Notes: a model not told the origin generated them from the letters alone. A stretch of DNA of 64,000 nt from Terriglobia bacterium (GCA_963788485.1 CAWBIS010000206.1:22301-86300); one strand, 5' to 3'. Positions 1,821 through 14,764 are shown, numbered from the stretch's first letter. Made by a program: numbers and translations.

Positions 1821-3146
1821 TCAGGTTCCGGGGCCCGCCCGAATCGAGATTTTACGATAAATGTCGAGGTGTTCCATAACCCTCCGACTGCCGGATCGAC
1901 AGTCGATCCCCATTCGACAATGTTGTTCTTGCCCGTCCGAAGCGGTTCGCTGTTGGTCGGCTTCCATTGGCAGACGCCGAGCTGCGCGAATGCCATCGAA
2001 GGTGCAACGGCCAGAACGATGAGAGTCAGGACGGAGACGACGCGCGCGCTGCGGATTTCCAATGGTCCTCCTCGTGAGCAGGGTGCTTGCACTTGGAGCG
2101 TAATCGCCCGTATCTGAAGCCTCGGGTATCGTAATCATGACGACGGAACGGAGGTCCACCCAGTTCTTAACTAAGCTTTCTATAGTCCGCGAGACCACAT
2201 CGAAGCCGTCGTGCGTAGGATTCAGGAGCACGCCTGGGATTTCACCTCCACGGATATCGACAATACTCTCGCCCTCTGGACTTTTCTGCAAATACAGATA
2301 CGGTGCGTATGCGACAATCTCGTGCACCGGGATACCACCAGGAGAAACTCGATCCAGGAGAAGCCCACGCACTGAGCCGGGTGCATCGTACACGTACAAG
2401 TGAAGCAGGGAATCCAGGTCAACTGTTCGATCAGAGAACTCAAGCCGGTTTCGCATCTGCTCAAGATTCTCCTTCAACCGTCTTAATTGGTAATCGCTGA
2501 TTATGTGTTTCGATTTCGGCGATATGACGAAGAGATAAGTATCCACCTCGCACCCGACAAGTCGCCGAACGAGATCAAGCGCATTCACGCCAGTGTACTG
2601 AATTACATAAGCTTTCCTCGTTCCGGCCGGCTGGGCATTGTTACTCAGATACTGATGCACCTGGTCCGCGAGAGACGCGTTGATATCGAACACAATTGCG
2701 GACTGGCGCCGGACGATGATCTCGAACAAACTCCCGAGCACAAGACGCGCGATTTCGTAGGGTTCGCTCCATGTTTGTGTTGTGTGTCGTCGCATCAGAT
2801 CGTGCACGAACTGTTGTTGAAGAGGATCACTTTCGGTACTCGAAGCATACTTGACAAAGACGATAATCGAGATGCCAAGCCTAACGGCTTCGTGATACTC
2901 CAATTCAACATAGGATTTACCTGATTCCTCGACGGTATCACCGTACCTGAAGCCTGCCATTAAGACGAAAAACTGACATGTGGCGAGCTTCTCGACGATT
3001 CGTTCCGTCGGCCGAGCGCTCGTTGCCGCCCAGTTCTCCATCGAAACAGGTGTACAGTTTGCAGCAAGCACTGCCCGGATCGCCTCAGCTCGTTCCGGCG
3101 CGAGATCGGACGTTGAACTGATGAAGACTCTATAATCACCCTTCAT
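1821..3146 (-). CDS. DUF4062-type (TIR/nucleoside-deoxyribosyltransferase-like fold) N-terminal domain protein with an uncharacterised C-terminal region
   Basis: The N-terminus YRVFISSTSDLAPERAEAIRAVL...CQFFVLMAGFRYG...SYVELEYHEAV...IIVFV matches the DUF4062 pattern from memory. The body (about 2137-3146) is visibly more AT-rich than its flanks. The last ~100 codons are Arg-rich and overlap another ORF's signal-peptide region, so the true 3' end is uncertain. Confidence 0.6.
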   Translation of the reverse strand: MKGDYRVFISSTSDLAPERAEAIRAVLAANCTPVSMENWAATSARPTERIVEKLATCQFFVLMAGFRYGDTVEESGKSYVELEYHEAVRLGISIIVFVKYASSTESDPLQQQFVHDLMRRHTTQTWSEPYEIARLVLGSLFEIIVRRQSAIVFDINASLADQVHQYLSNNAQPAGTRKAYVIQYTGVNALDLVRRLVGCEVDTYLFVISPKSKHIISDYQLRRLKENLEQMRNRLEFSDRTVDLDSLLHLYVYDAPGSVRGLLLDRVSPGGIPVHEIVAYAPYLYLQKSPEGESIVDIRGGEIPGVLLNPTHDGFDVVSRTIESLVKNWVDLRSVVMITIPEASDTGDYAPSASTLLTRRTIGNPQRARRLRPDSHRSGRCTFDGIRAARRLPMEADQQRTASDGQEQHCRMGIDCRSGSRRVMEHLDIYRKISIRAGPGT

Positions 3147-3348
3147 GCCCGGCTACTCCTGATCTTGAGGCTATTGTATCCGCTCCCGCATTCGCTGAGC
3201 GGGCACGTTGCAGACTGTCCTTGCCTATTTCACAGCGCTTTATTCGCAGCGCTTTGCCATAGCTGGCGATAACAGCCTTCCCGCCAGAAATGCTTGTTGG
3301 ACAGATCGAGTTAGAGGGTTAATCGACCGCGGAAATAGAAACGAACGT

Positions 3349-4695
3349 TCAGGCGGGTCGAGAATCGGCCCTGCGGTACAGTCTGTTTTCGATTTCCTCA
3401 ATCCACCTGCCTTCCTTACCTTGCCGGTCCCGATTCTCTCGAATCAGCTTTAAATTATCCGCCGTAGTCCTTGCACGGAAAAGCTCATCCCCAACCAACG
3501 GCAACGCATCCGCGAGGTGAGTCTCCGCCGCTTTCTTGTCATCGGCAAGAACCGCCAGTTCGAGCAAAGTCGCGTGGTCCCAGTAATCCGCACTCGCGGC
3601 CGCCTTCCGCGACGCGGCATAACGAACCACCGGAAGAATCGCAGCCTGACGGGGGTCCGGAGCCTCGGCCAGTTCCATCAGCGTGACCGCATTCACGCCG
3701 GGATACGCGTCCCGCCAATCCGCTTCGAAACCATCGAGGTAACAATCGATCGCCAGCTTCAGACAACCTCGCGCCATCAGGAAATCTCCCTCCGCCAGCG
3801 CAGCCCTATACCGATCCTTATAAACCCGGCCCAGTATCCCGTTCGTCTCGGGACTCGCGCCGTACTCCCTGATCACCTCTTTCAAAACCTTCTCCGCATC
3901 CTTCCACCGACCCGCCCGATTCAGCGCCAGCCCGAATTGCTCCCGCATCATGCGAACACGCTGCAGCGGGCGGGGCAACTCGTCGTAAAACTTCACCATT
4001 TCGCCGAAGGCCTCGACCGCGCGGAACGACAGAAATATCTGAATCACCACTCCCGATTCCACGTCCGCCAGATTCCCCAGGCTCTTCCGAATCGCCTGGA
4101 TGTCGGCGAGCCCGTGAGCCCCTTTCGCCGCAGCGTCGGAAAGCCGCCGGCGCACCTGGTTCGAGTGCTCCACCACCTTGCGGAAGATATCGGTCTTTGA
4201 ATGGTCGAGCCGCGGCCGAGGCAGATCCACCAGGAAGTTGTACACAGGACTGTCGTCCACGCACTGCCGCGCTTCTTCCAGCCTCTTGCTGAGCAGGTCG
4301 ATAAACCCCGGTGCATTTTTCATGCTGTAGGGAATGCCCCTCAGCGGGGCCACATCGAACGGCAGCACCGACCCTTCCTGAAAGATCACCACCGTACTGT
4401 AAGGCCGCAGGGCATGGCGGATTCCCAGCTCATAAAACACGTTCGGATTTTCGCCCGTCAGGTCCGCCACCGCATAGTCGCACAGCATCAGGCGCTCGAA
4501 CATCGGCTTGTGAATCCACCCGCCCACCAGTTCTTCGTCGGCCCGCACCGGTTCCATGTCCGCGGCGGCGATCGCCGGTTCGATCAGCTTTTTATACGCG
4601 GCGTCGAAATCGCGCAGCTTACCCGCGGAGTCCTTCTTCTTCCCGAACGGCATCAATACGAAGCAGAGGGGGCGCACAGGACCCCAGCATCGCAC
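3349..4695 (-). CDS. TIR-fold (nucleoside 2-deoxyribosyltransferase-like) N-terminal domain fused to a DUF4071 / MAP3K(ASK)-TRAF-binding-type TPR region
   Basis: N-terminus is CFVLMPFGKKKD...DFDAAYKKLIEPAI...CDYAVADLTGENPNVFYELGIRHAL. The helical repeat C-terminus is ...GILGRVYKDRY...AIDCYLDGFE...YPGVNAVTL. Start is ambiguous: GTG 4695, GTG 4677 or ATG 4653. Confidence 0.65.
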   Translation of the reverse strand: MRCWGPVRPLCFVLMPFGKKKDSAGKLRDFDAAYKKLIEPAIAAADMEPVRADEELVGGWIHKPMFERLMLCDYAVADLTGENPNVFYELGIRHALRPYSTVVIFQEGSVLPFDVAPLRGIPYSMKNAPGFIDLLSKRLEEARQCVDDSPVYNFLVDLPRPRLDHSKTDIFRKVVEHSNQVRRRLSDAAAKGAHGLADIQAIRKSLGNLADVESGVVIQIFLSFRAVEAFGEMVKFYDELPRPLQRVRMMREQFGLALNRAGRWKDAEKVLKEVIREYGASPETNGILGRVYKDRYRAALAEGDFLMARGCLKLAIDCYLDGFEADWRDAYPGVNAVTLMELAEAPDPRQAAILPVVRYAASRKAAASADYWDHATLLELAVLADDKKAAETHLADALPLVGDELFRARTTADNLKLIRENRDRQGKEGRWIEEIENRLYRRADSRPA

Positions 4696-5885
4696 AAATT
4701 ACAGATCGAAGACCGCGGGGAAATGCTGCTGCCGGACGAGTGCTTCCGCGGCTTTGCGGCCAATTTCGATAGCCGCTTGGCGTTCTCAGGACGGTCGATG
4801 TGCCTCAGGTCCCGAACTTCGTCCGGAGAAACCTCCAGTCCCAGCCGCTCCCGGAACCAATCGCGTTCGATCGGTGCGTCGTACCGCAGGTAATGCAGCA
4901 GGTTCTTCCCTCCCGGCAGGTCCCCGGAGCGGTCCCCCACCTCGCGGTTGATCCGAAGCGCGGTGGGCGACGAGCTCATCCGCTGCAACACGGCCTGCGC
5001 CAGCCAACTCGAATCGTTCATCGCCGAAAACAGCGCCTCGACCGCGAACTCCGCTGCCGACTCGCCGCGATATGACCGACCCCACAGCGGCGCGGGCTGC
5101 GAAGCGCCGGTTCCCAGGGAAAGCAGCATCGGATTCTCCTCGCCGATTCGGCCCTCGGAAGCCGTAGCCCTGCAACGTGGCCGGCATCGGCAGGAGCAGC
5201 GACGGGTTGTTGTGCGGGCCGACTCCGCCATCCGCGAACAGACCTTCCATGCCCGGCGCCACTTCCAGCAGCTGCAGCCCAAAATATGGCGGGGCGGCCG
5301 TGCCCGCGCGCAGCAGGTTTGCGATTTTGATATCGCGGTTTGGCGTGTGAGTACCCGCGGGGGATGACGCCCCGATAAACGCCCCATTCGGGTGATTGTG
5401 GAACAGCCAGACGCTGCCGGTATCCAGCCGTTTCGTAACGATGGCGAGCCCGCAGGCGACGCGGTCCGAACCCGGCGTATCCGGCCCGAACTCTCGGAGG
5501 ATGGCCTCACGCAGCGCTTCGTCGTCGAATTTGGGCATGAAGGCGCCGCCGAACCATTGAACCATTTGAGCCCGAACCATTCGCGGCGGACGAACGATTC
5601 GTGGGAGATGTGGAGGTAGAGGTCGATCAGTTCCGTGACGGTGTGGCCGATCGCCAGGCCGGCGGCAACGATGGCGCCGGTGGACGTGCCGCCGATCAGG
5701 GAGACGTAGTGGCAGAGGAGGAAATCGAGATATTGAGCAGGCGGAAGACGGGACTGCAGGAGGGCTTCGATGCGTTCGAGGAAGGCGAGGGAGATGACGC
5801 CGCGGACGCCCCCGCCATCGAGGGAAAGGATGCGCTTCGGGCCGGAGTCGAAGAGGTGATGGTGACGGAGTGCGGCCGGGCTCAT
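4653..5885 (-). pseudogene. Patatin-like phospholipase interrupted by two compensating frameshifts
   Basis: Frame A (5885 to ~5570) has DGGGVRG (oxyanion hole) and GGTSTGA (GxSxG). Frame B (~5570 to ~5150, inside ORF 4786-6345) has FGGAFMPKFDDEAL...FADGGVGPHNNP (catalytic DGG). Frame A resumes with RIGEENPMLLSLGTGAS... and runs to the stop at 4653. Shift 1 lies in a GAACCATT x3 cluster at 5551-5581. Shift 2 lies at about 5145-5165. Confidence 0.8.
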
Positions 5886-8791
5886 CAGTGCATCGCTTCG
5901 AGACAGCGCTGGTGGTTGGCTGCGAAGAGTTTCGTATTGGGATGTTCCGGTCCGAGAACTCGAAGGGCAGCTTCGAGAGCGCGGCGGTAGAGAGGCTCGG
6001 CGGCGGCGTAATCCCCCTGGCTCGCCAGCAGGTGCGCCAGATTGTTGACCGAAGCGAGGGTATCGGGATGCTCGGGCCCCAGCACGCGCTCCCTGGCCTC
6101 GAGAGCGCGGCGGTAGAGAGGCTCGGCGGCGGCGTAATCCCCCTGGCTCTCCAGCAGGTACGCCAGATTGTTGACCGAACCGAGGGTATCGGGATGCTGG
6201 GGTCCCAGCACGCGCTCCCTGGCTTCGAGAGCGCGGCGGTAGAGAGGCTCGGCGGCGGCGTAATTCCCCTGGCTCTCCAGCAGGCCCGCCAGATTGTTGA
6301 CCGAAGTGAGGGTATCGGGATGCTCGGCTCCCAGCACGCGCTCACTGGCTTCGAGAGCGCGGCGGTAGAGAGGCTCGGCGACGGCGTAATCCCCCTGTCT
6401 CTCCAGCAGGTACGCCAGATTGTTGACCGAACCGAGGGTATCGGGATGCTCGGGTCCCAGCACGCGCTCCCTGGCTTCGAGAGCGCGGCGGTAGAGAGGC
6501 TCGGCGGCGGCGTAATCCCCCTGGCTCGCCAGCAGGCCCGCCAGATTGTTGACCGAACCGAGGGTATCGGGATGCTCGGGTCCCAGCACGCGCTCCCTGG
6601 CTTCGAGAGCGCGGCGGTAGAGAGGCTCCGCGGCGGCGTAATCCCCCTGGCTCGCCAGCAGGCCCGCCAGATTGTTGATCGAAGTGAGGGTAGCGGGATG
6701 CTCGGGTCCCAGCACGCGCTCCCAGGCTTCGAGAGCGCGGCGGTAGAGAGGCTCGGCGGCGGTGTAATCCCCCTGACTCTTCAGCAGGTACGCCAGATTG
6801 TTGACCGAACCGAGGGTATCGGGATGCTCGGGTCCCAGCACGCGCTCACAGGCTTCGAGAGCGCGGCGGTAGAGAGGCTTGGCGGCTGCGTAATCCCCCT
6901 GTCTCGCCAGCAGGCCCGCCAGATTGTTGACCGAAGTGAGGGTATCGGGATGCTCGGGTCCCAGCACGCGCTCCCAGGCTTCGAGAGCGCGGCGGTAGAG
7001 AGGCTCGGCGGCGGCGTAATCCCCCTGGCTCTCCAGCATGCCCGCCAGATTGTTGACCGAACCGAGGGTATCGGGATGCTCGGCTCCCAGCACGCGCTCC
7101 CTGGCTTCGAGAGCGCGGCGGGCTGCCTCCGAGCCCTTGCGGTAGCTTCCGGCGTGGCGAAACGCGCTGGCCAGTTCCCCCCAGATCTTTGCCTGTAATT
7201 CTCTCTCGACCAAATCGCATCCGGCCAATGCGCGCGAATGGCTGACCAGTCCGGCCCAGATACGCTGGCTTTCGCGATCCCACGAGGGCGCCGGCGTCGC
7301 ACGAAAGTACATCTCGGCCGCTCTTTGCGCAACTTTCCCGGCGCGGTCGCCCATCTCGTGCCGTTCCACCGCCTGCACCAGCGCATGGACTAAAATGCAT
7401 CCGCCCGACTCCTGCTTCGCCATCGAATATCGCAGCAGGCTTTCCTTCCAGTCGCGAACGGCTTCCTCATCGGGAACATCCGTCGCCGCCTCTGCCGCCA
7501 GTTGTTCCGCCCCGGCAATATAGAGGCTGACGGGGAACGGTGTCGGCGCGAAGAATGCGTGCAGCCGCAACATCGCGCGCGCACCGGCCGGCAGCGCATC
7601 AAGTGTCGTCCTCCAGGTCAGATAAACCGAATCCGGATAGTCCGTCGCGCCCGGCGTCCGCCTCTTCAGATAATGTCGCTCATTTACCTCAAATCGCCGC
7701 GAATAGTCCGCAAACCCGACCTCGGGATGCTGCGCCACATATGCTGCCGCCTGCTCCAACGCCAACGGCAGGTACTGCAGTTTCTCCGCCACCCGATCCG
7801 CCGCCGCTTCCTCGCCCGCAATCCCTGCCCGCTCGCCGCGCCGGAGCAACAGCTCCCGCGCCGGCTCCGGGTCCAGTACCCAAACCGGATGCGTGGCAAT
7901 CCCCTCCGACCACTCCGTAAAGCGCGAAGTAATCAGCACGTGGCAATTCCCGGAAGCCGGGAGCCAGGGAAGAACGGACTTCTCATTCTCGGCGTTGTCG
8001 AGAATCAGCAGCCTCTGTTCCGAATACGGCTGCTCCAGTTCCTGTTTGGCCCGTTTGGCGCGAATCTCGACCTTAACGGCTTGCTCCTGTCCCGGGTTCA
8101 GCAGGTCGTAAATCTCCGCGAACCCGGTCTCCAGACCGGTGCGGCAATCCACCCAGAACATCTGGCGATAGCAGCGCCAGAACTTCTCCGCATAATGGCG
8201 CGCCAGGGTGGTCTTGCCGATGCCGCCCAGCGCCGGAAGCGCGATCACGCTGCCCTGCGTCAGCGCCGTCGGCCGGCTCAGAAACAGCTTCTCGTGCAGT
8301 TCGACCATGGTTGGGTCACGCCCGACGAAATGCTCGATCGGACGGTGTTTCAGGAGGGTTGCCCGGCCTTTTTCCCCACGCACGGGCCGCGGCTCATCGC
8401 GATAGGTCTGCAGGCGTGCGATCAACCGCTCCCAGTCGGAGGAGGTGGCGGACTCGTAAACCACCAGATCGCTCTGAAAGATTGAGAGGGGCGGCGTGAC
8501 CGCTTCCGTCCACGTGCCCCGAAGCAGCAAAGGAACCACGCGCGCCGCGCCGTAGGTTTCATAACGAGTCCAGAGCGAATTTTTCCATTGCGGCGTCAGT
8601 AGAGGAATCACGATGCGGCTGGCCTCGCAATGCCGTTCGATCTCCTCATGCCAGCGCATTTCGGGTGCGAGATAGGCCTTGTCCCACCAGACCTTGAAAC
8701 CTGCCGCAGTCAGGCGCGCGTGGATTTCTTCGGCCACGGCAGCATCTTCAGAACAATAGCTCAGGAAGCAATCGTAATATTCGGGAAACAC
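5885..8791 (-). CDS. TIR - NB-ARC (STAND NTPase) - TPR repeat protein
   Basis: TIR domain: YDCFLSYCSEDAAVAEEIHARLTAAGFKVWWDK ... NSLWTRYE (candidate catalytic Glu). NB-ARC domain: Walker A GGIGKTTLA (8207-8227), Walker B LLILDNAE, HVLITSR and YLPLALEQAA (GLPLAL-like). About ten 42-aa kinesin-light-chain-type TPR units follow (YRRALEARERVLGPEHPDTLGSVNNLAGLL.SQGDYAAAEPL). GTG start. Confidence 0.9.
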   Translation of the reverse strand: MFPEYYDCFLSYCSEDAAVAEEIHARLTAAGFKVWWDKAYLAPEMRWHEEIERHCEASRIVIPLLTPQWKNSLWTRYETYGAARVVPLLLRGTWTEAVTPPLSIFQSDLVVYESATSSDWERLIARLQTYRDEPRPVRGEKGRATLLKHRPIEHFVGRDPTMVELHEKLFLSRPTALTQGSVIALPALGGIGKTTLARHYAEKFWRCYRQMFWVDCRTGLETGFAEIYDLLNPGQEQAVKVEIRAKRAKQELEQPYSEQRLLILDNAENEKSVLPWLPASGNCHVLITSRFTEWSEGIATHPVWVLDPEPARELLLRRGERAGIAGEEAAADRVAEKLQYLPLALEQAAAYVAQHPEVGFADYSRRFEVNERHYLKRRTPGATDYPDSVYLTWRTTLDALPAGARAMLRLHAFFAPTPFPVSLYIAGAEQLAAEAATDVPDEEAVRDWKESLLRYSMAKQESGGCILVHALVQAVERHEMGDRAGKVAQRAAEMYFRATPAPSWDRESQRIWAGLVSHSRALAGCDLVERELQAKIWGELASAFRHAGSYRKGSEAARRALEARERVLGAEHPDTLGSVNNLAGMLESQGDYAAAEPLYRRALEAWERVLGPEHPDTLTSVNNLAGLLARQGDYAAAKPLYRRALEACERVLGPEHPDTLGSVNNLAYLLKSQGDYTAAEPLYRRALEAWERVLGPEHPATLTSINNLAGLLASQGDYAAAEPLYRRALEARERVLGPEHPDTLGSVNNLAGLLASQGDYAAAEPLYRRALEARERVLGPEHPDTLGSVNNLAYLLERQGDYAVAEPLYRRALEASERVLGAEHPDTLTSVNNLAGLLESQGNYAAAEPLYRRALEARERVLGPQHPDTLGSVNNLAYLLESQGDYAAAEPLYRRALEARERVLGPEHPDTLASVNNLAHLLASQGDYAAAEPLYRRALEAALRVLGPEHPNTKLFAANHQRCLEAMH
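5930..7140. repeat. Tandem 126-bp DNA repeats (about 10 units) encoding the TPR array
   Basis: The motif gagagcgcggcggtagagaggctcggcggcggcgtaatccccctg recurs at 5975, 6101, 6227, 6353, 6479, 6605, 6731, 6857, 6983 and (degenerate) 7109. The period is exactly 126 bp and nucleotide identity between units is high. Confidence 0.9.
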
Positions 8792-10486
8792 CTATTTCGC
8801 TCCCAGGTTGGCCGAAAGCTTTCGTTCGCGATGCATGGCCAGCCAGTCCGCGCTTTCGGCCAATGAATGGCAGCCCAGTTCCCGCAGGGTCTCCTCACAT
8901 TTGCCGAACTCTCCGTTGGATTCGAATTCCTCCAGATCCCGGTCGGCATCGTGAAACAAAGTGTGCATCTGTGCGTACTGCCGGGCCTCCTGCGTGAAGC
9001 CCCGGCGCTCGACGTAATCACACGCCAGCGCCGCCCACCACATGGCGACCGGAGCGGTGACTGCAGTCCACTCGCCGAAAGTGAAAAACCGGTTCAGCAG
9101 CGGCAGGGCGAGCCCGGTGATTCCGGCGATGGTGGCCAGAATATGGAAGGCGAGCTTTTTGCGCTTATGGCGCCTGCCGGTTTTCAGGAAATAGTTCCTC
9201 TGACTGACGACCCATTCGCGAGCCAGACGCAATCGGCCGGCGAGTCCCTCAATTTGCGCCGGACTCAGGCTGAGGACGCCCTCATACAGTGCGCATTCGC
9301 TGATGGCGTCGCGGATCCAGACCATTTCTCCGGCCTGTTTGCGAAGGTACTTATCGGCTGCGAGGTCGGGGAGGCCGGCCACCATCCAGAAAAACTGGAC
9401 ACGAAGGGCTTCCGCCAGTGCCCGGTAATCTTCGTGGCGGCCCCGCAGTTCGGCCCTTCGTTCGAGGAGAATAGGCAGGGCCGCAGCGGCGAGACAGGCG
9501 TAGTAGCCGTAAAGCAAATCGTTTTGGCCAGAGATATGGGAAAGCGCCAGGAACAGCCCCGCGAACGCCAGCATGACAAAGGCGAACTGCCAGCTGAGAA
9601 GACCGCGTTCGGCATAGCGGATGGCAAGGGCGTCGGCGCGCGAATAGGCCCCCATCACCCATTTCATAGCGGGCGTGAGGCCCACCGGTTCGCCTTTGGG
9701 GAACAGGTCCCTGCGGCTTCTGGCGACTGCTTTTGGGAAGTCTTTGCCGGCCTGGGCGACGTCCGCGTTGAACTTATCGAGCAAAAGGTAGCAGGCGTGA
9801 TAACCCGCCCATGTGGTCCCGTGGGGGACAGCTTCCTCGCATTTGAGCGCGGGAGTGGCGGAATGCCCGGATCCCGGAGTTCGGGCGGGGATGATGTATA
9901 CCGGGCCCGCGCCTTCGGCGTTGATTCGCGACCGGGAGAGGCGGTGATGGCGACTGTCTCGCCGGAGTTTCATGTCCACGACATCTGTGGCACCGCCTTC
10001 CTTGCGCGCGCGATCCCGGTCCCAGATGGCAATGAGGATCTGGCTGTAACGCACCAGGTATTCGCCGAGAAGGCGGTACTGATGTGCCCGCGGCTCGCCT
10101 GCAAGCCGAACCATCTCCGGGGTGACTCCGGGAGCAAGGGGCAGAGTGATGCATCGGACCGCGCGGTCGCGCATTTCGCAGAATTCCCGGTCGCTCGCTT
10201 CACTGGCGAATTCAGTGCGATAGAGATCTTCCGGCATGGGGAGGATCGCAGCGTAAGAAACCGCGATTTCCTTTTCCTGCGCCACGCGCACGGCGATTCG
10301 GTCGGCGCCTTCGGCCAGGCCGGAAAGCAGCAGGATCGGGGTATGGCGGTAGGCGTGTTTTAGTTTCTTAAAAATGACGCGGATTTCGGTTTCGTAACGC
10401 GGAATATCCTCGTCGATTAGTTTGAGGTGCCCGGTCACGGCTACCACCAGGGAGAGTGAGCCCTTTGTGAAGTCCTCGCTGGCCAT
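8792..10486 (-). CDS. SLOG (LOG/DprA/YpsA-like Rossmannoid) domain protein fused to two tandem 2-TM modules (SLATT/LSDAT-like)
   Basis: N-terminus is LVVAVTGHLKL...ILLLSGLAEGADRIAVRVAQE...ILIAIWDRDRARKEGGATDVV, a YpsA/LOG-like pattern. TM pair 1 is LLSWQFAFVMLAFAGLFLAL / LLYGYYACLAAAALPILL, followed by ELRGRHEDYRALAEALRVQFFW. TM pair 2 is LAFHILATIAGITGLALPLL / WTAVTAPVAMWWAALACDYV, preceded by QRNYFLKTGRRHKRKK. Confidence 0.6.
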   Translation of the reverse strand: MASEDFTKGSLSLVVAVTGHLKLIDEDIPRYETEIRVIFKKLKHAYRHTPILLLSGLAEGADRIAVRVAQEKEIAVSYAAILPMPEDLYRTEFASEASDREFCEMRDRAVRCITLPLAPGVTPEMVRLAGEPRAHQYRLLGEYLVRYSQILIAIWDRDRARKEGGATDVVDMKLRRDSRHHRLSRSRINAEGAGPVYIIPARTPGSGHSATPALKCEEAVPHGTTWAGYHACYLLLDKFNADVAQAGKDFPKAVARSRRDLFPKGEPVGLTPAMKWVMGAYSRADALAIRYAERGLLSWQFAFVMLAFAGLFLALSHISGQNDLLYGYYACLAAAALPILLERRAELRGRHEDYRALAEALRVQFFWMVAGLPDLAADKYLRKQAGEMVWIRDAISECALYEGVLSLSPAQIEGLAGRLRLAREWVVSQRNYFLKTGRRHKRKKLAFHILATIAGITGLALPLLNRFFTFGEWTAVTAPVAMWWAALACDYVERRGFTQEARQYAQMHTLFHDADRDLEEFESNGEFGKCEETLRELGCHSLAESADWLAMHRERKLSANLGAK

Positions 10487-10603
10487 CGGCGGGGTAGCTG
10501 CGATGGTAACACGGGAAATGGGAAAAGCCGGCGAAGCTGGACCGCACGAGTTGGCGACTGGGAGTCGGAAAGAAGGTCTTTCTTTACAGAGTTGAGGGTG
10601 CGG

Positions 10604-10632
10604 ATTATCCCGGAGAGGGCTTTACTTGTCGA
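10604..10632 (-). promoter_or_regulatory. sigma70-like promoter candidate for the SLOG/TIR operon
   Basis: The minus strand reads TCGACA-N17-GATAAT (-35 at 10627-10632, -10 at 10604-10609), about 120 nt upstream of ATG 10486. Confidence 0.3.
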
Positions 10633-10774: not shown

Positions 10775-10905
10775 GTGGCGGATTACAGGTATAGCACGCA
10801 CGCGGTGTTCGATTTGCAGTATCACGTGCTCTGGTGTACAAAGTACAGATACAAGATACTGCGCGGTCGAGTGGCGGAGTTGCGCGCACGAGCGTTGAGC
10901 CGGGC
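10775..10905 (+). pseudogene. N-terminal remnant of an IS200/IS605-family Y1 transposase (TnpA)
   Basis: YSTHAVFDLQYHVLWCTKYRYKILRGRVAELRAR matches the conserved N-terminus including the HxxYHxVW.TKYR motif. Similarity is lost after ~43 codons, and the catalytic HUH/Tyr parts are absent. Confidence 0.6.
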
Positions 10906-11176
10906 ACCTTCCAGACGGCTTCAGCCGTCCCCGCGCGAATTTAAGTCGTGTTGGATTCTAACGGCTTTAAGCCGGCAGTCGTTAGAAAACAACGGCGCGG
11001 GCGGCCACGCAAGCGCTGGCCATGTCTTGCCACATTCGCGGCACGGCGGAGCGCAGTCAGCGCCTCTTGCTCGGATGGCAGGCCCTTGCCTCGCGTGGTG
11101 CGCATGGCATGTCGGCTTTTCGTATCCCGCAGGTCGCATCGGCGTTGGATATGATATCTGATGTTTAAGACAGCCC

Positions 11177-14005
11177 GTGCTTCTATCCATTGTCAGGGCG
11201 GCAATCGTTCCGATCAAGCTCCTGTTTGGGTTTGACGCCTTCGTTTCCTACTCGCGCCGGGACGGAGCCAATTACTCTGAAGCCTTGGAACGGGAACTCG
11301 CCCGCCATATCTCTCCCCGCATGGACATCCAAGAGAGCAGGGCGGGCGAGACTATTCCACTGGGGCTAAAAATCAGCATAGCGTTCAGCAAAGTTTTTAT
11401 CCTAGTCGCTACCAGCGGCGCGTCGGACTCCAGGCATATCGAAGCCGAAGTCCTAACGTTTAAGAAATGGAGCAACGGCCCCATCATTCTCATCCAGCTT
11501 CCTGCCCCCGACGGGGAGGCCGTCTGGCGGACATATTTTAAAGGCCTCCCCGTCCTCGCGGAGACTGATCACAATCGAAGTTCCGGCCACCCTTCGGACT
11601 GCGTAATTCAGCGCATCCTAAATAATGTCGGCTATTGGCGCCGCAGCCGCCGGCAACGCCTCGCGACCACAGTTTTAACAATTGTGCTCGCCACTTTGGG
11701 AATTCTAGTAAGAAGTGCCTACGTTTCGCTGGGCCGAGCCACGACCGAAGCCAGAGCCCAACAAAGGGCTGCGCGAACCGCCAAAAGCGAAGCCGAGGCA
11801 GCCACCCAAGAGACCGCTCGCCAAGTCACAAATCTACGCGCAGCGGAGCGCGCTCGCGACAAGGCGAACGAAGCGCAGAGCAAAGCTGAAAGATTGACCG
11901 CCCAGAGTTCCGCCCGATACACGGAGGCCCTGTCGAAGTATCTTGCGATCAAGGCAGCTGACCCGGACGCGCCCCAGTTGCCGCTTTTTATCGAGTCCGT
12001 GCTTCGGAAGCCGGTCGATACGGGAGTAAGCGGGCTCATGACGCGCATCCCGCTTCAGCGGCGCATCATTGCGACGCTCCCGCACGCGGAGTCTTTGAAC
12101 GCCGTCGCGTTCAGCCCGGACGGCAAGACCCTCGCTACCGCCAGCAATGTGACCACGTGGCTGTGGGATGCTGTTTCCGGCCAGCTTCGCGCCACCCTTC
12201 AGGACGGTGGCGCCCGTGGCGCCGTCTCCGCCGTCGCTTTCAGCCCAGACGGCAGGACCGTTGCCACAGTTGACGGCTGGTCAACGCGACTGTGGGATAC
12301 CTCGACCGGTCGGCTCCGCGCGACCTTTGAGAGCGTACTGGCAGGCGCTGTTGCCTTCAGCCCTGACGGCAAAACCCTCGCTACGGTTTGGGCGGCATCC
12401 GACGTGCGTCTGTTGGATTTAGCCTCGAGACAGCCCGACGTCGCCCTCGGACACCACCAATCAAACGTAACTGCGATCGCATTTAGTCCGGACGGCAAGA
12501 CCGTCGGCACATCGAGTCTCGATCGGACCGCGCGGCTGTGGGATGCCTCCTCTGGACAGCTTCGGGTAACCCTTCAGCACCAAGGTGCTGTTTACGCCCT
12601 CGCTTTCAGCCCCGATGGCAGGGAGGTCGCCACGGGCGACGACAGCGCCGCACGGCTGTGGGATGCCGTTTCCGGCCAGCTTCGCGCCACCCTTCAACAA
12701 AAAGGGATTGTCCACGCTGTTGCCTTCAGCCCTGACGGCAGAATCGTCGCCGCGGGCGTCGACAACACCGCACGGCTATGGGATGTCGCCTCCGGCGAAC
12801 CGCGCGCCGCCCTTGAGCACCGAAACATCGTTCGCGCCATTGCCTTTAGCCCGAATGGAAAGATCATCGCGACGGCCGACGACAGGACAGCCACGCTGTG
12901 GGACGCCTCGTCTCGTGATCGCAGTGCGATCCTCCCGCAAAGCCTTAGCGCCGTAGCATTCAGCCCTGATGGTAAAACAGTCGCTACAGGCAATAGCGAC
13001 AATGCCGTGCGACTTTGGGATGCCGTCTCCGGCCAAATAGGAGTTACCCTTCAGCAGCGGTCGATCGTCTTAGCAGTCGCCTTTAGCCCGGACGGTAAGA
13101 CCGTCGGGACTCCGGACGGTCCCGTCTCGAGGCTGTGGGATGCCGTCTCAGGCAAGCCCCGCGTCACGCTCCCGCACGCCCCGTGGCCCCTCTGCGCCCC
13201 CGCCTTTAGCCCTGATAGCAGGATCGTCGCTACCGCCGATCTGGATAACGCTGCGCGGCTTTGGGATGCCTCTTCCGGCCAACTACGCGCTACCCTCCCG
13301 CACAAAGGCAACGTGGTCGCTGTCACCTTCGGCCCGGAAGGCAAAACCGTCGCCACCGCCAGTCTTGACAAGACCGCGCGGTTGTGGGATGCGTCTTCCG
13401 GCCAACTGCGCGCAACCCTCCAACACCAAGATTCCGTGCGCGCGGTGGCCTTCAGCCCGGACGGCAAGACTGTCGTAACCGCCAGTGACGACAAGACCGC
13501 GCGGCTTTGGGATGCGTTTTCCGGCGAACTGCGCGCAACCCTCCAACACCAAGATCGCGTGCGTGCGGTGGCCTTCAGCCCGGACGGTAAGACTGTCGCA
13601 ACCGCCGGTGACGACAAGACCGCGCGGCTTTGGGATGCGTTTTCCGGCCGGCTCCGCGCCGCCCTCCAGCACCAAGCCGGCGTGACAGCCGTTGCCTTCA
13701 GCCCGGACGGTAACACTGTCGCCACCGGGAGCTATGACAAGACTGCGTGGCTGTGGGATGTCGAGACCGGTCAGCCCCGTGCCGATCTTCAGTACCACGG
13801 CGCCGTCTACGCCGTCGCCTTTAGCCCGGATGGCAAGACTTTACTCGTGTCGTCCGACCGTGAGGCGCAGCTCTATCTTTACCATCCTGCAGACCTTATC
13901 GAGGCCGCTTGCGACTTCCTGCCATTCAATCTCACGCCGGCGCAATGGAAGATTTATTTGCCGGACGAGCCCTACAGAAAGACCTGCCCGAGAATTCGTA
14001 ACTGA
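11177..14005 (+). CDS. TIR - single TM - coiled coil - 15x WD40 repeat protein
   Basis: TIR domain: FDAFVSYSRRDGANYSEALERELAR ... SRHIEAEVLTF. The basic stretch WRRSRRQR is followed by TM helix LATTVLTIVLATLGILV (about 11660-11725) and an Ala/Glu/Arg-rich coiled coil (about 11732-11926). Fifteen units of AVAFSPDGKTVATAS.DKTARLWDA.SGQLRATLQH follow. GTG start. Confidence 0.85.
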   Translation: MLLSIVRAAIVPIKLLFGFDAFVSYSRRDGANYSEALERELARHISPRMDIQESRAGETIPLGLKISIAFSKVFILVATSGASDSRHIEAEVLTFKKWSNGPIILIQLPAPDGEAVWRTYFKGLPVLAETDHNRSSGHPSDCVIQRILNNVGYWRRSRRQRLATTVLTIVLATLGILVRSAYVSLGRATTEARAQQRAARTAKSEAEAATQETARQVTNLRAAERARDKANEAQSKAERLTAQSSARYTEALSKYLAIKAADPDAPQLPLFIESVLRKPVDTGVSGLMTRIPLQRRIIATLPHAESLNAVAFSPDGKTLATASNVTTWLWDAVSGQLRATLQDGGARGAVSAVAFSPDGRTVATVDGWSTRLWDTSTGRLRATFESVLAGAVAFSPDGKTLATVWAASDVRLLDLASRQPDVALGHHQSNVTAIAFSPDGKTVGTSSLDRTARLWDASSGQLRVTLQHQGAVYALAFSPDGREVATGDDSAARLWDAVSGQLRATLQQKGIVHAVAFSPDGRIVAAGVDNTARLWDVASGEPRAALEHRNIVRAIAFSPNGKIIATADDRTATLWDASSRDRSAILPQSLSAVAFSPDGKTVATGNSDNAVRLWDAVSGQIGVTLQQRSIVLAVAFSPDGKTVGTPDGPVSRLWDAVSGKPRVTLPHAPWPLCAPAFSPDSRIVATADLDNAARLWDASSGQLRATLPHKGNVVAVTFGPEGKTVATASLDKTARLWDASSGQLRATLQHQDSVRAVAFSPDGKTVVTASDDKTARLWDAFSGELRATLQHQDRVRAVAFSPDGKTVATAGDDKTARLWDAFSGRLRAALQHQAGVTAVAFSPDGNTVATGSYDKTAWLWDVETGQPRADLQYHGAVYAVAFSPDGKTLLVSSDREAQLYLYHPADLIEAACDFLPFNLTPAQWKIYLPDEPYRKTCPRIRN
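12070..13880. repeat. Tandem ~123-bp DNA repeats encoding the WD40 blades
   Basis: The 41-aa blade period is visible at DNA level. Units between about 13330 and 13740 are near-identical (gacaagaccgcgcggctttgggatgcgttttccggc...gccttcagcccggacggtaagactgtcg). Confidence 0.85.
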
Positions 14006-14445: not shown

Positions 14446-14521
14446 TGGTGAGCCGGGCGGGGCTCGAACCCGCGACCACCGCATTAAAAGTGCGATGCTC
14501 TACCAACTGAGCTACCGGCTC
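14446..14521 (-). tRNA. tRNA-Lys (anticodon TTT)
   Basis: The reverse complement GAGCCGGTAGCTCAGTTGGTAGAGCATCGCACTTTTAATGCGGTGGTCGCGGGTTCGAGCCCCGCCCGGCTCACCA folds as a cloverleaf with anticodon loop CTTTTAA and an encoded CCA. Confidence 0.95.
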
Positions 14522-14649
14522 CTGGGGAATGTAAGACTGGGCAGCGCCGCGACGTCCGTACCCGTCAGGTTAGCATAGGGGAGTCTGGCCGATCCCCTTT
14601 GCCAACCCGCTCGGCGGGCCCTGTTGCGAACAGAACCGCGGCGCACCGC

Positions 14650-14658
14650 TGTTATAAT
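14650..14658 (+). promoter_or_regulatory. Extended -10 element (TGTTATAAT) upstream of tRNA-Leu
   Basis: tgttataat ends 20 nt before the tRNA 5' end. No good -35 lies at 17-bp spacing. Confidence 0.35.
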
Positions 14659-14677
14659 CCAACCAGATCTTCCCAGT

Positions 14678-14764
14678 GCGGATGTGGCGAAACTGGCAGA
14701 CGCGCCAGATTTAGGTTCTGGTTTCCGAAAGGAAGTGAAGGTTCAAGTCCTTTCATCCGCACCA
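14678..14764 (+). tRNA. tRNA-Leu (anticodon TAG), class II with a long variable arm
   Basis: GCGGATGTGGCGAAACTGGCAGACGCGCCAGATTTAGGTTCTGGTTTCCGAAAGGAAGTGAAGGTTCAAGTCCTTTCATCCGCACCA has an anticodon arm CCAGA-TTTAGGT-TCTGG, a variable stem TTCC/GGAA and an encoded CCA. Confidence 0.95.

What the first reader, a model, noticed from the sequence alone, without database searches (positions are those of the whole stretch)
3349..10632. Gap-free operon SLOG-4TM / TIR-NB-ARC-TPR / patatin / TIR-fold-DUF4071-TPR: candidate uncharacterised nucleotide-signalling immune system
Seen in sequence:
- Four minus-strand ORFs are packed without intergenic DNA. The TAG of the SLOG gene (8792-8794) abuts the GTG of the TIR gene (8789-8791).
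- The TIR stop and the patatin start share one base (TGATG, 5883-5887).
- The patatin stop (4653-4655) overlaps the next ORF. The overlap is 43 nt if that ORF starts at GTG 4695, or another TGATG if it starts at ATG 4653.
- A TCGACA-N17-GATAAT promoter candidate sits upstream at 10604-10632.

Established knowledge:
- In Thoeris, TIR proteins make cyclic-ADPR-type signals that are sensed by the SLOG domain of ThsA.
- In CBASS, a patatin phospholipase (CapV) is a nucleotide-activated effector.
- STAND NTPases with TPR sensors (Avs-like) recognise phage proteins.

Inference: this operon combines those three logics. The proposed parts are a TPR-STAND sensor whose TIR could act as signal generator, a SLOG receptor wired to a 4-TM membrane effector, a lipase, and a second TIR-fold/TPR protein. 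As far as I know this four-gene combination is not one of the named defence systems. Three further TIR-fold genes flank it.
Basis: partly seen in the sequence, partly recalled or inferred. Interest (0 to 1): 0.9.

Follow-up and report, generated by a model that had tools for sequence, protein, structure and literature searches.

The report
Multi-effector TIR signalling defence operon
This is a tightly packed bacterial operon that most likely works as a Thoeris-like anti-phage alarm: a TIR enzyme fused to an NLR-like sensor, plus a small-molecule-gated membrane pore, a nucleotide hydrolase and a now-dead lipase. All its building blocks and their pairings have been described before, so it is a new variant rather than a new kind of system.

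Summary

- **A (8792-10486):** a YpsA-like SLOG domain, confirmed by fold, fused to a double-SLATT 4-TM module.
- **B (5885-8791):** TIR–NB-ARC–TPR. It keeps the catalytic Glu and a P-loop and has a hypervariable 126-nt repeat array.
- **C:** a CapV-like patatin, but a pseudogene with three indels. Its ancestral stop is TAA 4701-4699.
- **D (3349-4695):** a DNPH1-like N-domain plus DUF4071/TPR-S.

Across 80 species-level loci, TIR genes are 9-fold enriched within 3 kb of SLOG-4TM genes (35/80 loci, p≈1e-10). Partner architectures vary, patatin and D co-occur only occasionally, and the closest homologues (66-67% identity) stand alone.

The novelty claim is only partly right. TPR-S systems with TIR, YspA-SLOG and patatin partners were catalogued in 2020. 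A December 2025 preprint validates TIR+SLATT (type VII Thoeris) and TIR+"CMP hydrolase-TPR" (type VIII), both using cADPR. It also lists "SLOG and 4TM" as a predicted type that gave no defence in E. coli.

Best reading: a composite Thoeris-like system with a STAND-fused TIR as sensor and signal generator. It is a new variant of a known kind, of moderate interest.

The parts
10604..10632 (-). Sigma-70-like promoter candidate TCGACA-N17-GATAAT, 118-146 nt upstream of the ATG of gene A
   Evidence: 10/12 match and the best in the region, but the count of such sites is not above shuffles. Sequence seen.
8792..10486 (-). Gene A: SLOG (YpsA-like, aa ~12-220) fused to a double-SLATT 4-TM module (aa ~279-551). 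Predicted signal-gated membrane effector.
   Evidence: Pfam YAcAr 27 bits and SLATT_1 25.4 bits, both just under the cut-offs. At family level, 20/29 members hit YAcAr, 9 SLATT_1, 9 DUF4231 and 4 SLATT_3. AF2 pLDDT 84. Foldseek hits YpsA, DprA and LOG. TM hairpins at 301-344 and 445-490. hhalign to a SLATT_3+SLATT_1 protein gives prob 82%, E 1e-5.
5885..8791 (-). Gene B: TIR (aa 9-102; ~8486-8767), NB-ARC STAND NTPase (aa 179-354; ~7730-8257) and a TPR_10/12 array (aa 556-968). Predicted invader sensor and NAD+-derived signal generator.
   Evidence: Pfam TIR_2 6.6e-17, NB-ARC 25.1 bits (above the 23.5 cut-off), TPR_10/12 x10. E78 and F9 are invariant among 49 TIR partners. P-loop GGIGKTT and Walker B LLILD are visible in the translation.
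5970..7121 (-). Tandem array inside B: 9.1 copies of a 126-nt (42-aa TPR) unit at 93% DNA identity, with variation confined to five positions per repeat
   Evidence: TRF score 2010. (variable positions 9, 22, 29, 32, 33; 203 nonsynonymous against 37 synonymous codon differences among repeat pairs).
4699..5885 (-). Gene C: CapV-like patatin phospholipase, now a pseudogene with an 8-nt duplication at 5551-5566, +1 nt at ~5147 and -1 nt at ~4771. Ancestral stop TAA 4701-4699.
   Evidence: Split Pfam and PADLOC hits in two frames. tblastn against the intact L002 orthologue. Frame views. In-silico repair gives 392 aa, 61% identical to L002 over the full length. NCBIfam CBASS_lipase 84.8 bits, below the 200 cut-off.
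3349..4695 (-). Gene D: DNPH1/CMP-hydrolase-like (DrHyd) N-domain (aa ~9-145, invariant YELG Glu89) plus DUF4071/MAP3K_TRAF_bd with a TPR-S sensor. Predicted ThsI-like signal-activated nucleotide hydrolase. The public annotation starts it at ATG 4653.
   Evidence: Pfam MAP3K_TRAF_bd 8e-31 and TPR-S 81.6 bits (above 27.6). PDB profile hits ASK1 at 4.6e-13. The N-domain profile's top hits are all Rcl/DNPH1 at E 0.03-0.9, aligned on YELG. Foldseek hits ASK1. P0121 is 434 aa.
1821..3146 (-). Gene E: DUF4062 (TIR-like) protein, 202 nt downstream of D on the same strand. Possibly associated; membership of the operon is uncertain.
   Evidence: Pfam DUF4062 4.3e-20. DUF4062-NACHT-TPR proteins also neighbour SLOG-4TM homologues. 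GC drops to 0.549 in 2001-4000.
11177..14005 (+). Gene F: TIR - TM helix - coiled coil - 14 WD40 repeats, divergent from A. A possible second sensor or generator.
   Evidence: TIR_2 1.7e-5; own TIR HMM 5.8e-6; TM 162-180. An identical F-A-B arrangement occurs in an independent Logan contig, L001.
14446..14764 (.). tRNA-Lys (14446-14521, -) and tRNA-Leu (14678-14764, +) bounding the TIR gene cluster on the right

Best explanation
The operon is a composite, multi-effector TIR-signalling (Thoeris-like) abortive-infection system.

**Inferred mechanism**
1. The hypervariable TPR array of B binds an invader-derived ligand.
2. The NB-ARC NTPase oligomerises. This brings the N-terminal TIR domains together, so that they cleave NAD+ into a cyclic-ADPR-type messenger. 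Canonical cADPR is the best guess, because that is the ligand of the validated D-like and SLATT effectors.
3. The messenger is read in parallel by two intact effectors.
   - The cytosolic YpsA-like SLOG domain of A gates or assembles its double-SLATT 4-TM module into a membrane-breaching pore.
   - The TPR-S domain of D switches on its DNPH1-like N-glycosidase domain to deplete nucleotides.
4. A CapV-like patatin was a third effector but has been inactivated by three indels.

**Shown:** the gene order and junctions, the domain and fold identities, the conserved catalytic residues, the statistical TIR linkage, and the pseudogene.

**Inferred:** which protein makes the signal, what the signal is, and that A and D respond to it.
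For: **Operon structure.** Stop and start codons abut or overlap, which points to co-transcription and translational coupling.

**TIR linkage of A.**
- TIR ORFs are 9.3-fold denser within 3 kb of SLOG-4TM genes than 3-10 kb away, in 35/80 species-level loci (binomial p 1.6e-10).
- All 49 partners hit Pfam TIR_2, and 24 also hit ThsB_TIR.
- All keep the catalytic Glu.
- Partner architectures vary (TIR-only, TIR-TPR, TIR-WD40, TIR-STAND). That fits coupling through a diffusible molecule rather than through a fixed protein contact.
- In the whole 64-kb window the TIR profile hits only B and F, both next to A.

**Recurrence of the same families in distant genomes.**
- L053 has patatin, TIR-Sel1, SLOG-4TM and D (56% identical).
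- L049 has A→patatin→TIR.
- L085 has a patatin and a 959-aa TIR-TPR protein next to A.
- L034 has a B-type TIR-NB-ARC-TPR directly upstream of A.

**Domain identities.**
- A's N-domain has the SLOG fold. SLOG is the cADPR-isomer sensor of type I ThsA.
- A's C-half is collinear with a SLATT_3+SLATT_1 protein.
- D carries TPR-S and a DNPH1-like domain.
- A 49%-identical D homologue on a Rhizobium plasmid sits in the order D→double-SLATT→ThsB-type TIR. That TIR is 37% identical to a verified type VII ThsB.

**Published experiments.** TIR+SLATT and TIR+CMP-hydrolase-TPR systems defend against phage and respond to cADPR, and some operons carry both effectors.

**B as a sensor.** Its repeats are 93% identical at the DNA level, with variation concentrated at five positions. 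This is the pattern expected of a diversifying sensor.
Against: - The closest A homologues (66-67% identity) sit alone among housekeeping genes, with no TIR, patatin or D within 10 kb.
- A whole Ignavibacteria/Kapaibacterium clade lies in a conserved FBPase/dUTPase context without TIR.
- 45 of 80 loci have no TIR within 3 kb.
- Of the seven D-family loci inspected, the four with an adjacent TIR gene are the window, L053 (found as a neighbour of an A homologue), L097 and L105. L096 has a TIR-TPR gene about 3 kb away, beyond two intervening genes. Among the six loci fetched as D homologues, L082, L083 and L098 have none.
- TIR-STAND proteins are usually read as self-contained Avs-type NADase effectors, and the 2025 survey excluded Avs TIRs.
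- Two 'SLOG and 4TM' operons gave no defence in E. coli.
- B's TIR is a classical TIR_2 type. It is closest to type III Thoeris TIR4 (31%, 5e-9) and not to the ThsB cluster of types VII and VIII.
- PADLOC has no model for A.
- A's own Pfam scores are just below the cut-offs.
- One effector is a pseudogene, so the system may be decaying.
- No biochemistry was possible.
Confidence: 0.6

Rival explanations
1. This is a defence islet of independent modules. B is a self-contained Avs-like STAND whose TIR is the NAD+-depleting effector. A, D and the patatin are separate effectors or orphans. They either answer to other TIRs (F, E or genes elsewhere) or are no longer wired to anything.
For: - TIR-STANDs are treated as Avs-type effectors, and the 2025 survey removed them as non-signalling.
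- The closest A homologues are solitary, and many D homologues are solitary (29/78 'Tpr alone'; also L082, L083 and L098).
- The cluster lies next to two tRNA genes, and an IS200-like fragment lies in the A/F intergenic region.
- The patatin is decayed.
Against: - The abutting and overlapping stop/start codons argue for one transcription and translation unit.
- TIR enrichment next to SLOG-4TM is strong.
- The same four families recur together in L053, and three of them in L049 and L085.
- A B-type protein is again adjacent to A in the planctomycete locus L034.
- A and D each carry a recognised small-molecule sensor domain but no invader sensor of their own.
Confidence: 0.25
2. The wiring is different. 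The SLOG domain of A or the DNPH1-like domain of D is the enzyme that makes or processes the nucleotide signal. This follows the BcTir/Tpr claim that the Tpr protein, not the TIR, makes a cADPR isomer. The TIR of B would then act as receptor, adaptor or NADase effector.
For: - The 2023 BcTir/Tpr preprint reports that BcTpr, not BcTir, consumes NAD+ and makes a cADPR isomer.
- D's YELG Glu89 and many N-domain residues are invariant, as expected of an enzyme.
- SLOG and DrHyd families include enzymes.
Against: - The TIR catalytic Glu is invariant in all 49 partners. In BcTir it is naturally replaced by Lys.
- The 2025 study shows that the TIRs of types VII and VIII themselves make cADPR on infection and that the effectors respond to added cADPR.
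- A's SLOG resembles the non-enzymatic YpsA/DprA branch more than it resembles LOG.
Confidence: 0.1
3. This is not an immune system. The SLOG-4TM family would be a housekeeping nucleotide-gated membrane protein, and the TIR, TPR and patatin neighbours would reflect physiological or developmental signalling.
For: - A homologues in Ignavibacteria/Kapaibacterium and the closest relatives lie in stable housekeeping neighbourhoods.
- The rest of the window is metabolic.
- The family is essentially absent from plasmids and viral contigs.
Against: - The partner families (TIR with catalytic Glu, STAND with hypervariable repeats, CapV-like patatin, TPR-S/ThsI-like) are all hallmark conflict-system parts.
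- Related two-gene systems defend against phage experimentally.
Confidence: 0.05

Closest known systems
Type VII Thoeris (ThsB TIR + SLATT effector ThsH; canonical cADPR), bioRxiv 10.64898/2025.12.03.692087
   Same: A TIR gene sits next to a SLATT membrane effector. A's residues 279-551 are collinear with a full SLATT_3+SLATT_1 protein that lies in a D+SLATT+ThsB operon (hhalign prob 82%, E 1e-5). The predicted logic is the same: a TIR product triggers a membrane-breaching assembly.
   Different: A carries an extra N-terminal YpsA-like SLOG domain that ThsH, annotated 'SLATT' only, is not reported to have. The TIR here is a TIR_2 type fused to NB-ARC-TPR rather than a small ThsB. The signal is unknown, and there is no experimental support.
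Type VIII Thoeris (ThsB TIR + ThsI 'CMP hydrolase and TPR'; cADPR) = TIR/TPR-S systems of Burroughs & Aravind 2020; BcTir/BcTpr (bioRxiv 10.1101/2023.05.26.542521)
   Same: D has the TPR-S domain above the Pfam cut-off and a DNPH1-like N-domain with an invariant YELG Glu. It lies in a TIR-containing operon. The 2020 catalogue already lists TIR, YspA (SLOG) and patatin as partners of the TPR-S core, and operons with both ThsH and ThsI are reported.
   Different: I could not compare D with a verified ThsI sequence. The N-domain match to DNPH1 is marginal (E 0.03). The TIR is STAND-fused, and D is the last of four genes rather than half of a two-gene operon.
'SLOG and 4TM' putative Thoeris effector (Streptomyces sp. 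GKU 895, Ca. Nitrospira nitrosa COMA1; Table S2 of the 2025 preprint)
   Same: The architecture label is identical (SLOG + 4 TM effector next to a TIR gene), and it was already proposed as one of 29 putative Thoeris types.
   Different: The two tested examples gave no defence in E. coli. Their effector sequences are not in the held supplement, so homology to A is untested. Their TIRs are small stand-alone proteins.
Type I Thoeris (ThsA SIR2-SLOG + ThsB)
   Same: A TIR signal generator is paired with an effector that has a SLOG sensor.
   Different: A has no SIR2 domain. PADLOC ThsA models do not hit A. A's SLOG is at the N-terminus and drives a membrane module.
Avs/AVAST and plant TNL receptors (TIR-NB-ARC-repeat STAND proteins)
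   Same: B has an N-terminal TIR, a central NB-ARC P-loop NTPase and a C-terminal repeat sensor. Like plant TNLs, it may make a small-molecule signal that activates a downstream membrane channel.
   Different: No PADLOC Avs model hits B. Avs TIRs are regarded as terminal NADase effectors. The repeats are TPR rather than LRR. NCBIfam would name B an 'FxSxx-COOH system TPR protein' (479.9 bits, cut-off 300), but I found no FxsA or FxsB partner among the ORFs scanned.
CBASS with CapV patatin effector
   Same: The patatin matches CBASS phospholipase effector profiles. PADLOC gives 1.3e-21 for the N-part and 3.5e-40 for the intact L002 orthologue. NCBIfam CBASS_lipase gives 84.8 bits for the repaired protein.
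   Different: There is no CD-NTase in the operon. The NCBIfam score is far below the 200-bit equivalog cut-off. The gene is a pseudogene here.

Membership tests
Thoeris (generic: TIR signal generator + ligand-activated effector) | A TIR-domain gene with the catalytic Glu lies adjacent to the effector gene | tested here: met
   B has TIR_2 at 6.6e-17. E78 is invariant in 49 TIR partners. A and B abut. The enrichment is 9.3-fold, p 1.6e-10.
Thoeris (generic: TIR signal generator + ligand-activated effector) | The effector carries a recognised small-molecule sensor domain | tested here: met
   A has the SLOG fold (20/29 members hit YAcAr). D has TPR-S at 81.6 bits.
Thoeris (generic: TIR signal generator + ligand-activated effector) | The TIR makes an ADPR-derived messenger on infection, and the system protects against phage | not testable with these tools
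   This needs LC-MS and plaque assays. The published 'SLOG and 4TM' tests were negative in E. coli.
Type I Thoeris | The effector ThsA has a SIR2 (or N-terminal TM) domain plus a C-terminal SLOG | tested here: not met
   No SIR2 hit in Pfam and no ThsA hit in PADLOC for A. The domain order is SLOG at the N-terminus and TM at the C-terminus.
Type VII Thoeris | The effector is a SLATT-domain membrane protein | tested here: met
   SLATT_1 scores 25.4 bits, just under the 26.3 cut-off. At family level there are hits to SLATT_1, DUF4231 and SLATT_3. hhalign to a SLATT_3+SLATT_1 protein gives E 1e-5.
Type VII Thoeris | A small stand-alone ThsB TIR partner and a cADPR signal | tested here: not met
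   B is a 968-aa TIR-NB-ARC-TPR protein. Its TIR is closest to type III TIR4, not to type VII ThsBs. The signal is not testable.
Type VIII Thoeris / TPR-S systems | The effector has the TPR-S domain | tested here: met
   PF20308 at 7.1e-23 and 81.6 bits, above the 27.6 cut-off. The ASK1 central regulatory region matches at 4.6e-13.
Type VIII Thoeris / TPR-S systems | The effector has a CMP-hydrolase/DNPH1-type N-domain | tested here: inconclusive
   The N-domain profile's top PDB hits are all Rcl/DNPH1 but at E 0.03-0.9, aligned on the invariant YELG. Pfam finds nothing in aa 1-150. PADLOC's 'TIR effector' model scores 7e-10.
Type VIII Thoeris / TPR-S systems | Sequence homology to a verified ThsI (Yersinia or Pseudomonas) | not testable with these tools
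   Effector sequences are not in the held supplements. There is indirect support: a 49%-identical Rhizobium homologue lies beside a double-SLATT gene and a ThsB-type TIR gene.
'SLOG and 4TM' putative Thoeris type | A SLOG + 4 TM effector lies next to a TIR gene | tested here: met
   Direct comparison with IMG genes 2862473379 and 2691454910 was not possible (led nowhere).
Avs/AVAST | A STAND NTPase with an N-terminal effector and a C-terminal TPR sensor | tested here: met
   NB-ARC at 25.1 bits (cut-off 23.5), a P-loop, and TPR x10.
Avs/AVAST | A match to a defined Avs family model | tested here: not met
   PADLOC hits for B are TIR-domain models only (SAVED_TIR, PDC-S66, ThsB). No Avs model hits.
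CBASS | A CD-NTase cyclase in the operon | tested here: not met
   No cyclase hit in Pfam, PADLOC or NCBIfam for any ORF scanned between 24 and 14005.
FxSxx-COOH system (NCBIfam) | The TPR protein scores above the model cut-off | tested here: met
   NF040586 at 479.9 bits against a cut-off of 300. The score is probably inflated by ten near-identical TPR repeats.
FxSxx-COOH system (NCBIfam) | Companion FxsA peptide and FxsB radical-SAM genes nearby | tested here: not met
   No such NCBIfam hit among the ten neighbouring ORFs scanned.

The most novel reading that the evidence does not exclude
B is a bacterial counterpart of a plant TNL receptor. In this reading a TIR–NB-ARC–repeat STAND protein does not kill by draining NAD+. 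Instead it broadcasts a diffusible NAD+-derived messenger to several unrelated effectors encoded in the same operon: a SLOG-gated double-SLATT pore, a TPR-S-gated nucleotide hydrolase and, ancestrally, a lipase. That would make STAND-TIR proteins signal generators of Thoeris-type immunity. It would also give the so far unverified 'SLOG-4TM' effector class a working context.
Probability: 0.35. Interest if true: 0.7.

Novelty: new variant of a known kind. Interest (0 to 1): 0.45.

Why it matters
If B really signals to A and D, three things follow.
- It would link two large branches of bacterial immunity that are usually treated separately: STAND/Avs-type sensors and Thoeris-type TIR signalling.
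- It would offer a bacterial parallel to the plant TNL → small molecule → membrane-channel pathway.
- It would supply a natural context in which to retest the 'SLOG and 4TM' effector class, which failed in E. coli when paired with small TIRs.

The operon also shows one TIR coupled to three effector types, one of which is caught in the act of decay.

Set against this, every component and most pairings are already catalogued, the four-gene set is rare, and nothing here is shown biochemically.

Tried and rejected
1. **Sequence search of the A family against the PDB.** Only chance-level CorA and occludin matches. The fold search was needed instead.
2. **Retrieving the published 'SLOG and 4TM' locus.** I searched with the Ca. 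Nitrospira nitrosa TIR sequence from Table S1. The exact protein is not in the database. The nearest relative (59% identity, L099) is not next to a SLOG-4TM gene. Direct homology to the published candidates therefore stays untested.
3. **Metagenome scan with A alone.** It gave only 9 loci. They were useful but few.
4. **Plasmid and viral collections for A.** No plasmid match and one partial viral match. A mobile-element origin was not pursued.
5. **Patatin frameshift as sequencing error or programmed shift.** Rejected. There are three separate indels, one of them an 8-nt tandem duplication, while the 7.1 kb of flanking genes A, B and D are intact. No independent assembly covers the region, so an assembly artefact cannot be fully excluded.
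6. **CBASS membership.** Rejected because there is no cyclase.
7. **FxSxx-COOH membership for B.** Considered because of the NCBIfam score. Rejected as a system call because there are no companion genes.
8. **Typing B's TIR by similarity to 18 reference Thoeris TIRs.** The similarities are too weak to assign a signal type.
9. **Reading Burroughs & Aravind 2020 directly.** The paper is not held. I relied on two preprints that summarise it.
10. **ORFs 24-854, 913-1311 and 1312-1803.** No family hits and out-of-frame-looking composition. They are not counted as TIR-fold genes.

Full report
**1. Observation**

The ORF scan finds four minus-strand ORFs:
- A, 8792-10486 (564 aa)
- B, 5885-8791 (968 aa)
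- a 410-aa ORF at 4653-5885
- D, 3349-4695 (448 aa)

A 519-aa ORF in another frame (4786-6345) overlaps the third.
- AAA-TAG-GTG at 8794-8789
- TGATG at 5887-5883
- TTGATG at 4656-4651

The promoter-like TCGACA-N17-GATAAT at 10632-10604 is present and is the best match between 1500 and 11400. The number of such matches is not above shuffled sequence, however.

**2. Domains**

Pfam, PADLOC and NCBIfam give the following.
- **A:** YAcAr/YspA SLOG (27.0 bits, cut-off 28.2; aa 14-76) and SLATT_1 (25.4 bits, cut-off 26.3; aa 426-512).
- **B:** TIR_2 (6.6e-17), NB-ARC (25.1 bits, cut-off 23.5), DUF7779 and ten TPR_10/12 repeats.
- **Patatin:** split between two frames. Profile positions 1-85 fall in one ORF and 88-186 in the other.
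- **D:** MAP3K_TRAF_bd/DUF4071 (8e-31) and TPR-S (81.6 bits).

Because A's scores are sub-threshold, I tested it three further ways.
- Among 29 diverse homologues, 20 hit YAcAr, 5 hit DprA, 9 hit SLATT_1, 9 hit DUF4231 and 4 hit SLATT_3.
- An AlphaFold2 model built on that alignment is confident (pLDDT 84, pTM 0.84).
- Foldseek against the PDB returns YpsA (2nx2; E 4e-5, TM 0.67 on the target), then DprA, ShosA, TM1055 and LOG proteins. All of these are SLOG-superfamily folds.

Two hydrophobic hairpins (301-344 and 445-490) give four TM helices. A profile-profile comparison aligns A residues 279-551 with almost the whole of a 293-aa SLATT_3+SLATT_1 protein (probability 82%, E 1e-5). A is therefore a YpsA-like SLOG domain fused to a complete double-SLATT module.

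**3. The patatin is a pseudogene**

An intact orthologue lies directly upstream of the SLOG-4TM gene in a Bryobacterales MAG (L002; 397 aa in one frame). Aligning it to the window shows three frame changes:
- an 8-nt tandem duplication, AATGGTTC|AATGGTTC, at 5566-5551
- one extra A near 5147
- a 1-nt loss near 4771

The first two sum to +9. The ORF from ATG 5885 therefore stays open, but it reads about 147 codons out of frame, including the catalytic Asp of the DGG motif.

Undoing the three changes yields a 392-aa protein that is 61% identical over its full length to the L002 patatin. It ends at TAA 4701-4699, three bases before the GTG of D. It matches CBASS lipase profiles (PADLOC 1e-21 to 4e-40; NCBIfam CBASS_lipase 84.8 bits, below the 200 equivalog cut-off).

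A, B and D (7.1 kb) are intact, and an 8-nt duplication is not a typical read error, so I treat this as real decay. No independent assembly covers the region.

**4. B looks like an active enzyme and a diversifying sensor**

- In an alignment of B with 48 TIR proteins found next to SLOG-4TM homologues, only F9 and E78 are invariant. E78 sits in the S-x-W-x-x-x-E position of the catalytic Glu (motif assignment from my own knowledge of TIR enzymes).
- All 49 proteins hit Pfam TIR_2, and 24 also hit ThsB_TIR.
- B has the P-loop GGIGKTT and Walker B LLILD.
- Its TPR region is a 9.1-copy, 126-nt tandem array at 93% DNA identity.
- Differences among the repeats fall at positions 9, 22, 29, 32 and 33 of the 42-aa unit. 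There are 203 nonsynonymous and 37 synonymous codon differences among repeat pairs.

**5. D**

- The C-terminal two thirds match the ASK1 central regulatory region by sequence (4.6e-13) and by fold.
- A profile of the N-terminal 150 residues finds, as its best PDB matches, only Rcl/DNPH1 N-glycosidases. These are marginal (E 0.03-0.9) but consistently aligned on the family-invariant YELG (Glu89).
- This is the architecture the 2025 preprint calls 'CMP hydrolase and TPR' (ThsI). That preprint cites DNPH1 work and attributes the TPR to Burroughs & Aravind 2020.

**6. Synteny**

A profile scan of one genome per species found at least 413 loci encoding a relative of A, and I kept 80. The neighbours are not conserved at the sequence level. 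At domain level the results are as follows.
- An iteratively built TIR profile, later validated 49/49 by Pfam, finds a TIR ORF within 3 kb in 35 of the 80 loci.
- TIR density is 0.084 per kb near the gene and 0.009 per kb at 3-10 kb (binomial p 1.6e-10).
- Partner architectures range from ~230-aa TIR-only proteins through TIR-TPR (~740 aa) and TIR-WD40 to DUF4062-NACHT-TPR and TIR-nSTAND-WD40.

The other window families recur only occasionally:
- L053 (a deltaproteobacterial MAG) has patatin, TIR-Sel1, SLOG-4TM and a D homologue (56% identical).
- L049 has A→patatin→TIR.
- L085 has a patatin and a 959-aa TIR-TPR protein beside A.
- L034 (Gimesia) has a B-type TIR-NB-ARC-TPR (43-45% identical) just upstream of A.

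Against an obligate system:
- The closest A homologues (66-67% identity) are solitary among housekeeping genes.
- An Ignavibacteria/Kapaibacterium clade sits next to FBPase and dUTPase genes with no TIR.
- D homologues are mixed. L097 and L105 have an adjacent TIR gene, and L096 has a TIR-TPR gene about 3 kb away beyond two intervening genes. L082, L083 and L098 have none.

On a Rhizobium plasmid a 49%-identical D homologue is followed by a SLATT_3+SLATT_1 gene and a 143-aa TIR gene. That TIR is 37% identical to a verified type VII ThsB. This is the 'both effectors in one operon' arrangement that the preprint reports.

**7. Context in the window**

- The TIR-type genes (E, D, B and F) occupy about 1.8-14.0 kb.
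- F (TIR, one TM helix, coiled coil, 14 WD40 repeats) is divergent from A. The F-A-B stretch is identical in an independent Logan contig.
- tRNA-Lys and tRNA-Leu lie just beyond F.
- An IS200-like fragment lies in the A/F spacer.
- The rest of the window is metabolic.
- In all 64 kb the TIR profile hits only B and F.

**8. Literature**

*bioRxiv 10.64898/2025.12.03.692087*
- It defines type VII Thoeris (TIR + SLATT ThsH) and type VIII (TIR + CMP-hydrolase-TPR ThsI).
- Both are activated by canonical cADPR made by the TIR on infection.
- It notes rare operons with both effectors.
- It lists 29 putative effector types.
- Table S2 shows that 'SLOG and 4TM' (two operons) and 'SLOG Patatin' (two operons) were cloned in E. 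coli and gave no defence.
- The authors excluded Avs-type TIRs from the survey.

*bioRxiv 10.1101/2023.05.26.542521*
- It reports phage defence by a Bacillus TIR/TPR pair.
- It summarises the 78 TPR-S operons of Burroughs & Aravind 2020: alone 29, with TIR 28, with YspA 5, with patatin 4, and also with LSDAT and calcineurin. [quoted passage not shown]
- I could not obtain the 2020 paper itself.

**9. Interpretation**

The best-supported model is a composite Thoeris-like system.
- B senses the invader through its TPR array, oligomerises through NB-ARC, and makes the signal with its TIR.
- A (SLOG-gated double-SLATT pore) and D (TPR-S-gated DNPH1-like hydrolase) are parallel effectors.
- The patatin is a lost third effector.

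Anatomy, folds, catalytic residues, linkage statistics and the pseudogene are shown. The direction of signalling, the identity of the messenger and the effector responses are inferred by analogy with types I, VII and VIII.

The main rival is that B is a self-contained Avs-like NADase and the neighbours are independent. That reading is favoured by the solitary close homologues and by convention. It is disfavoured by the coupled junctions, by the recurrence of the same families together, and by the fact that A and D have ligand sensors but no invader sensor of their own.

**10. Verdict**

- The functional inference is reasonable.
- The novelty claim is overstated. This is a new variant, made of a STAND-fused TIR, a SLOG-fused double SLATT and a ThsI-like effector in one operon, of a known and recently expanded kind.
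- Interest is 0.45. It would rise if a STAND-TIR were shown to act as a signal generator.

Noticed in passing
L053:13320-16070 and L096:6954-7499: RyR-domain (PF02026) proteins lie next to D-family (DUF4071/TPR-S) genes in two of the seven D-family loci inspected. One is fused to a P-loop NTPase. cADPR is the classical modulator of animal ryanodine receptors (own knowledge), so this could be a lead to another cADPR-responsive module or a coincidence.
   Followed up: no
window 5970-7121: Nine near-identical 126-nt TPR repeats (93% DNA identity, no indels) lie inside B. Variation is restricted to five positions per 42-aa unit, and nonsynonymous differences are in excess (203 against 37).
   Followed up: partly
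window 14446-14764: tRNA-Lys(ttt) and tRNA-Leu(tag) lie immediately right of the TIR gene cluster. GC falls to 0.549 in 2001-4000 against about 0.61 elsewhere. Together these suggest an acquired islet. I did not look for an integrase or for attachment-site repeats.
   Followed up: no
window 10775-11161 (+): An ORF in the 690-nt spacer between A and F has a short IS200/Y1 transposase-like match (23.1 bits, aa 11-35). It may be a transposase remnant or a RAYT-like fragment.
   Followed up: no
window 11177-14005 (+): Gene F encodes a TIR domain, one TM helix (162-180), a coiled coil and 14 WD40 repeats built from 120-123-nt tandem units (72-83% identity). It is a second repeat-sensor TIR protein, divergent from the operon. 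Similar TIR-WD40 proteins neighbour SLOG-4TM genes in L019 and L084.
   Followed up: partly
window 1821-3146 (-): Gene E has an N-terminal DUF4062 (TIR-like) domain and ~320 residues with no family hit. Its last ~90 residues look out of frame (rich in R, G and S). A ≥90%-identical Logan relative is only 348 aa, so the true C-terminus may lie earlier.
   Followed up: no
L003, L007, L009, L012 (Ignavibacteria/Kapaibacterium MAGs): SLOG-4TM homologues (31-33% identity) sit in a conserved housekeeping context directly after a fructose-1,6-bisphosphatase gene and near dUTPase, with no TIR gene. This hints that part of the family is not a mobile defence gene.
   Followed up: partly
L105 (Rhizobium sophoriradicis plasmid NZ_CP104156, 13157-24440): This is a dense TIR locus. 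It holds a D homologue, a double-SLATT protein and a ThsB-type TIR on one strand. On the other strand it holds two more TIR proteins, an HhH-GPD N-glycosylase, a QueC-like 7-cyano-7-deazaguanine synthase and a carbohydrate kinase.
   Followed up: partly
window 5885-8791 (-): NCBIfam would name B an 'FxSxx-COOH system tetratricopeptide repeat protein' (479.9 bits, cut-off 300), although no FxsA or FxsB genes are nearby. This is a likely source of misleading automatic annotation for repeat-rich NB-ARC-TPR proteins.
   Followed up: partly
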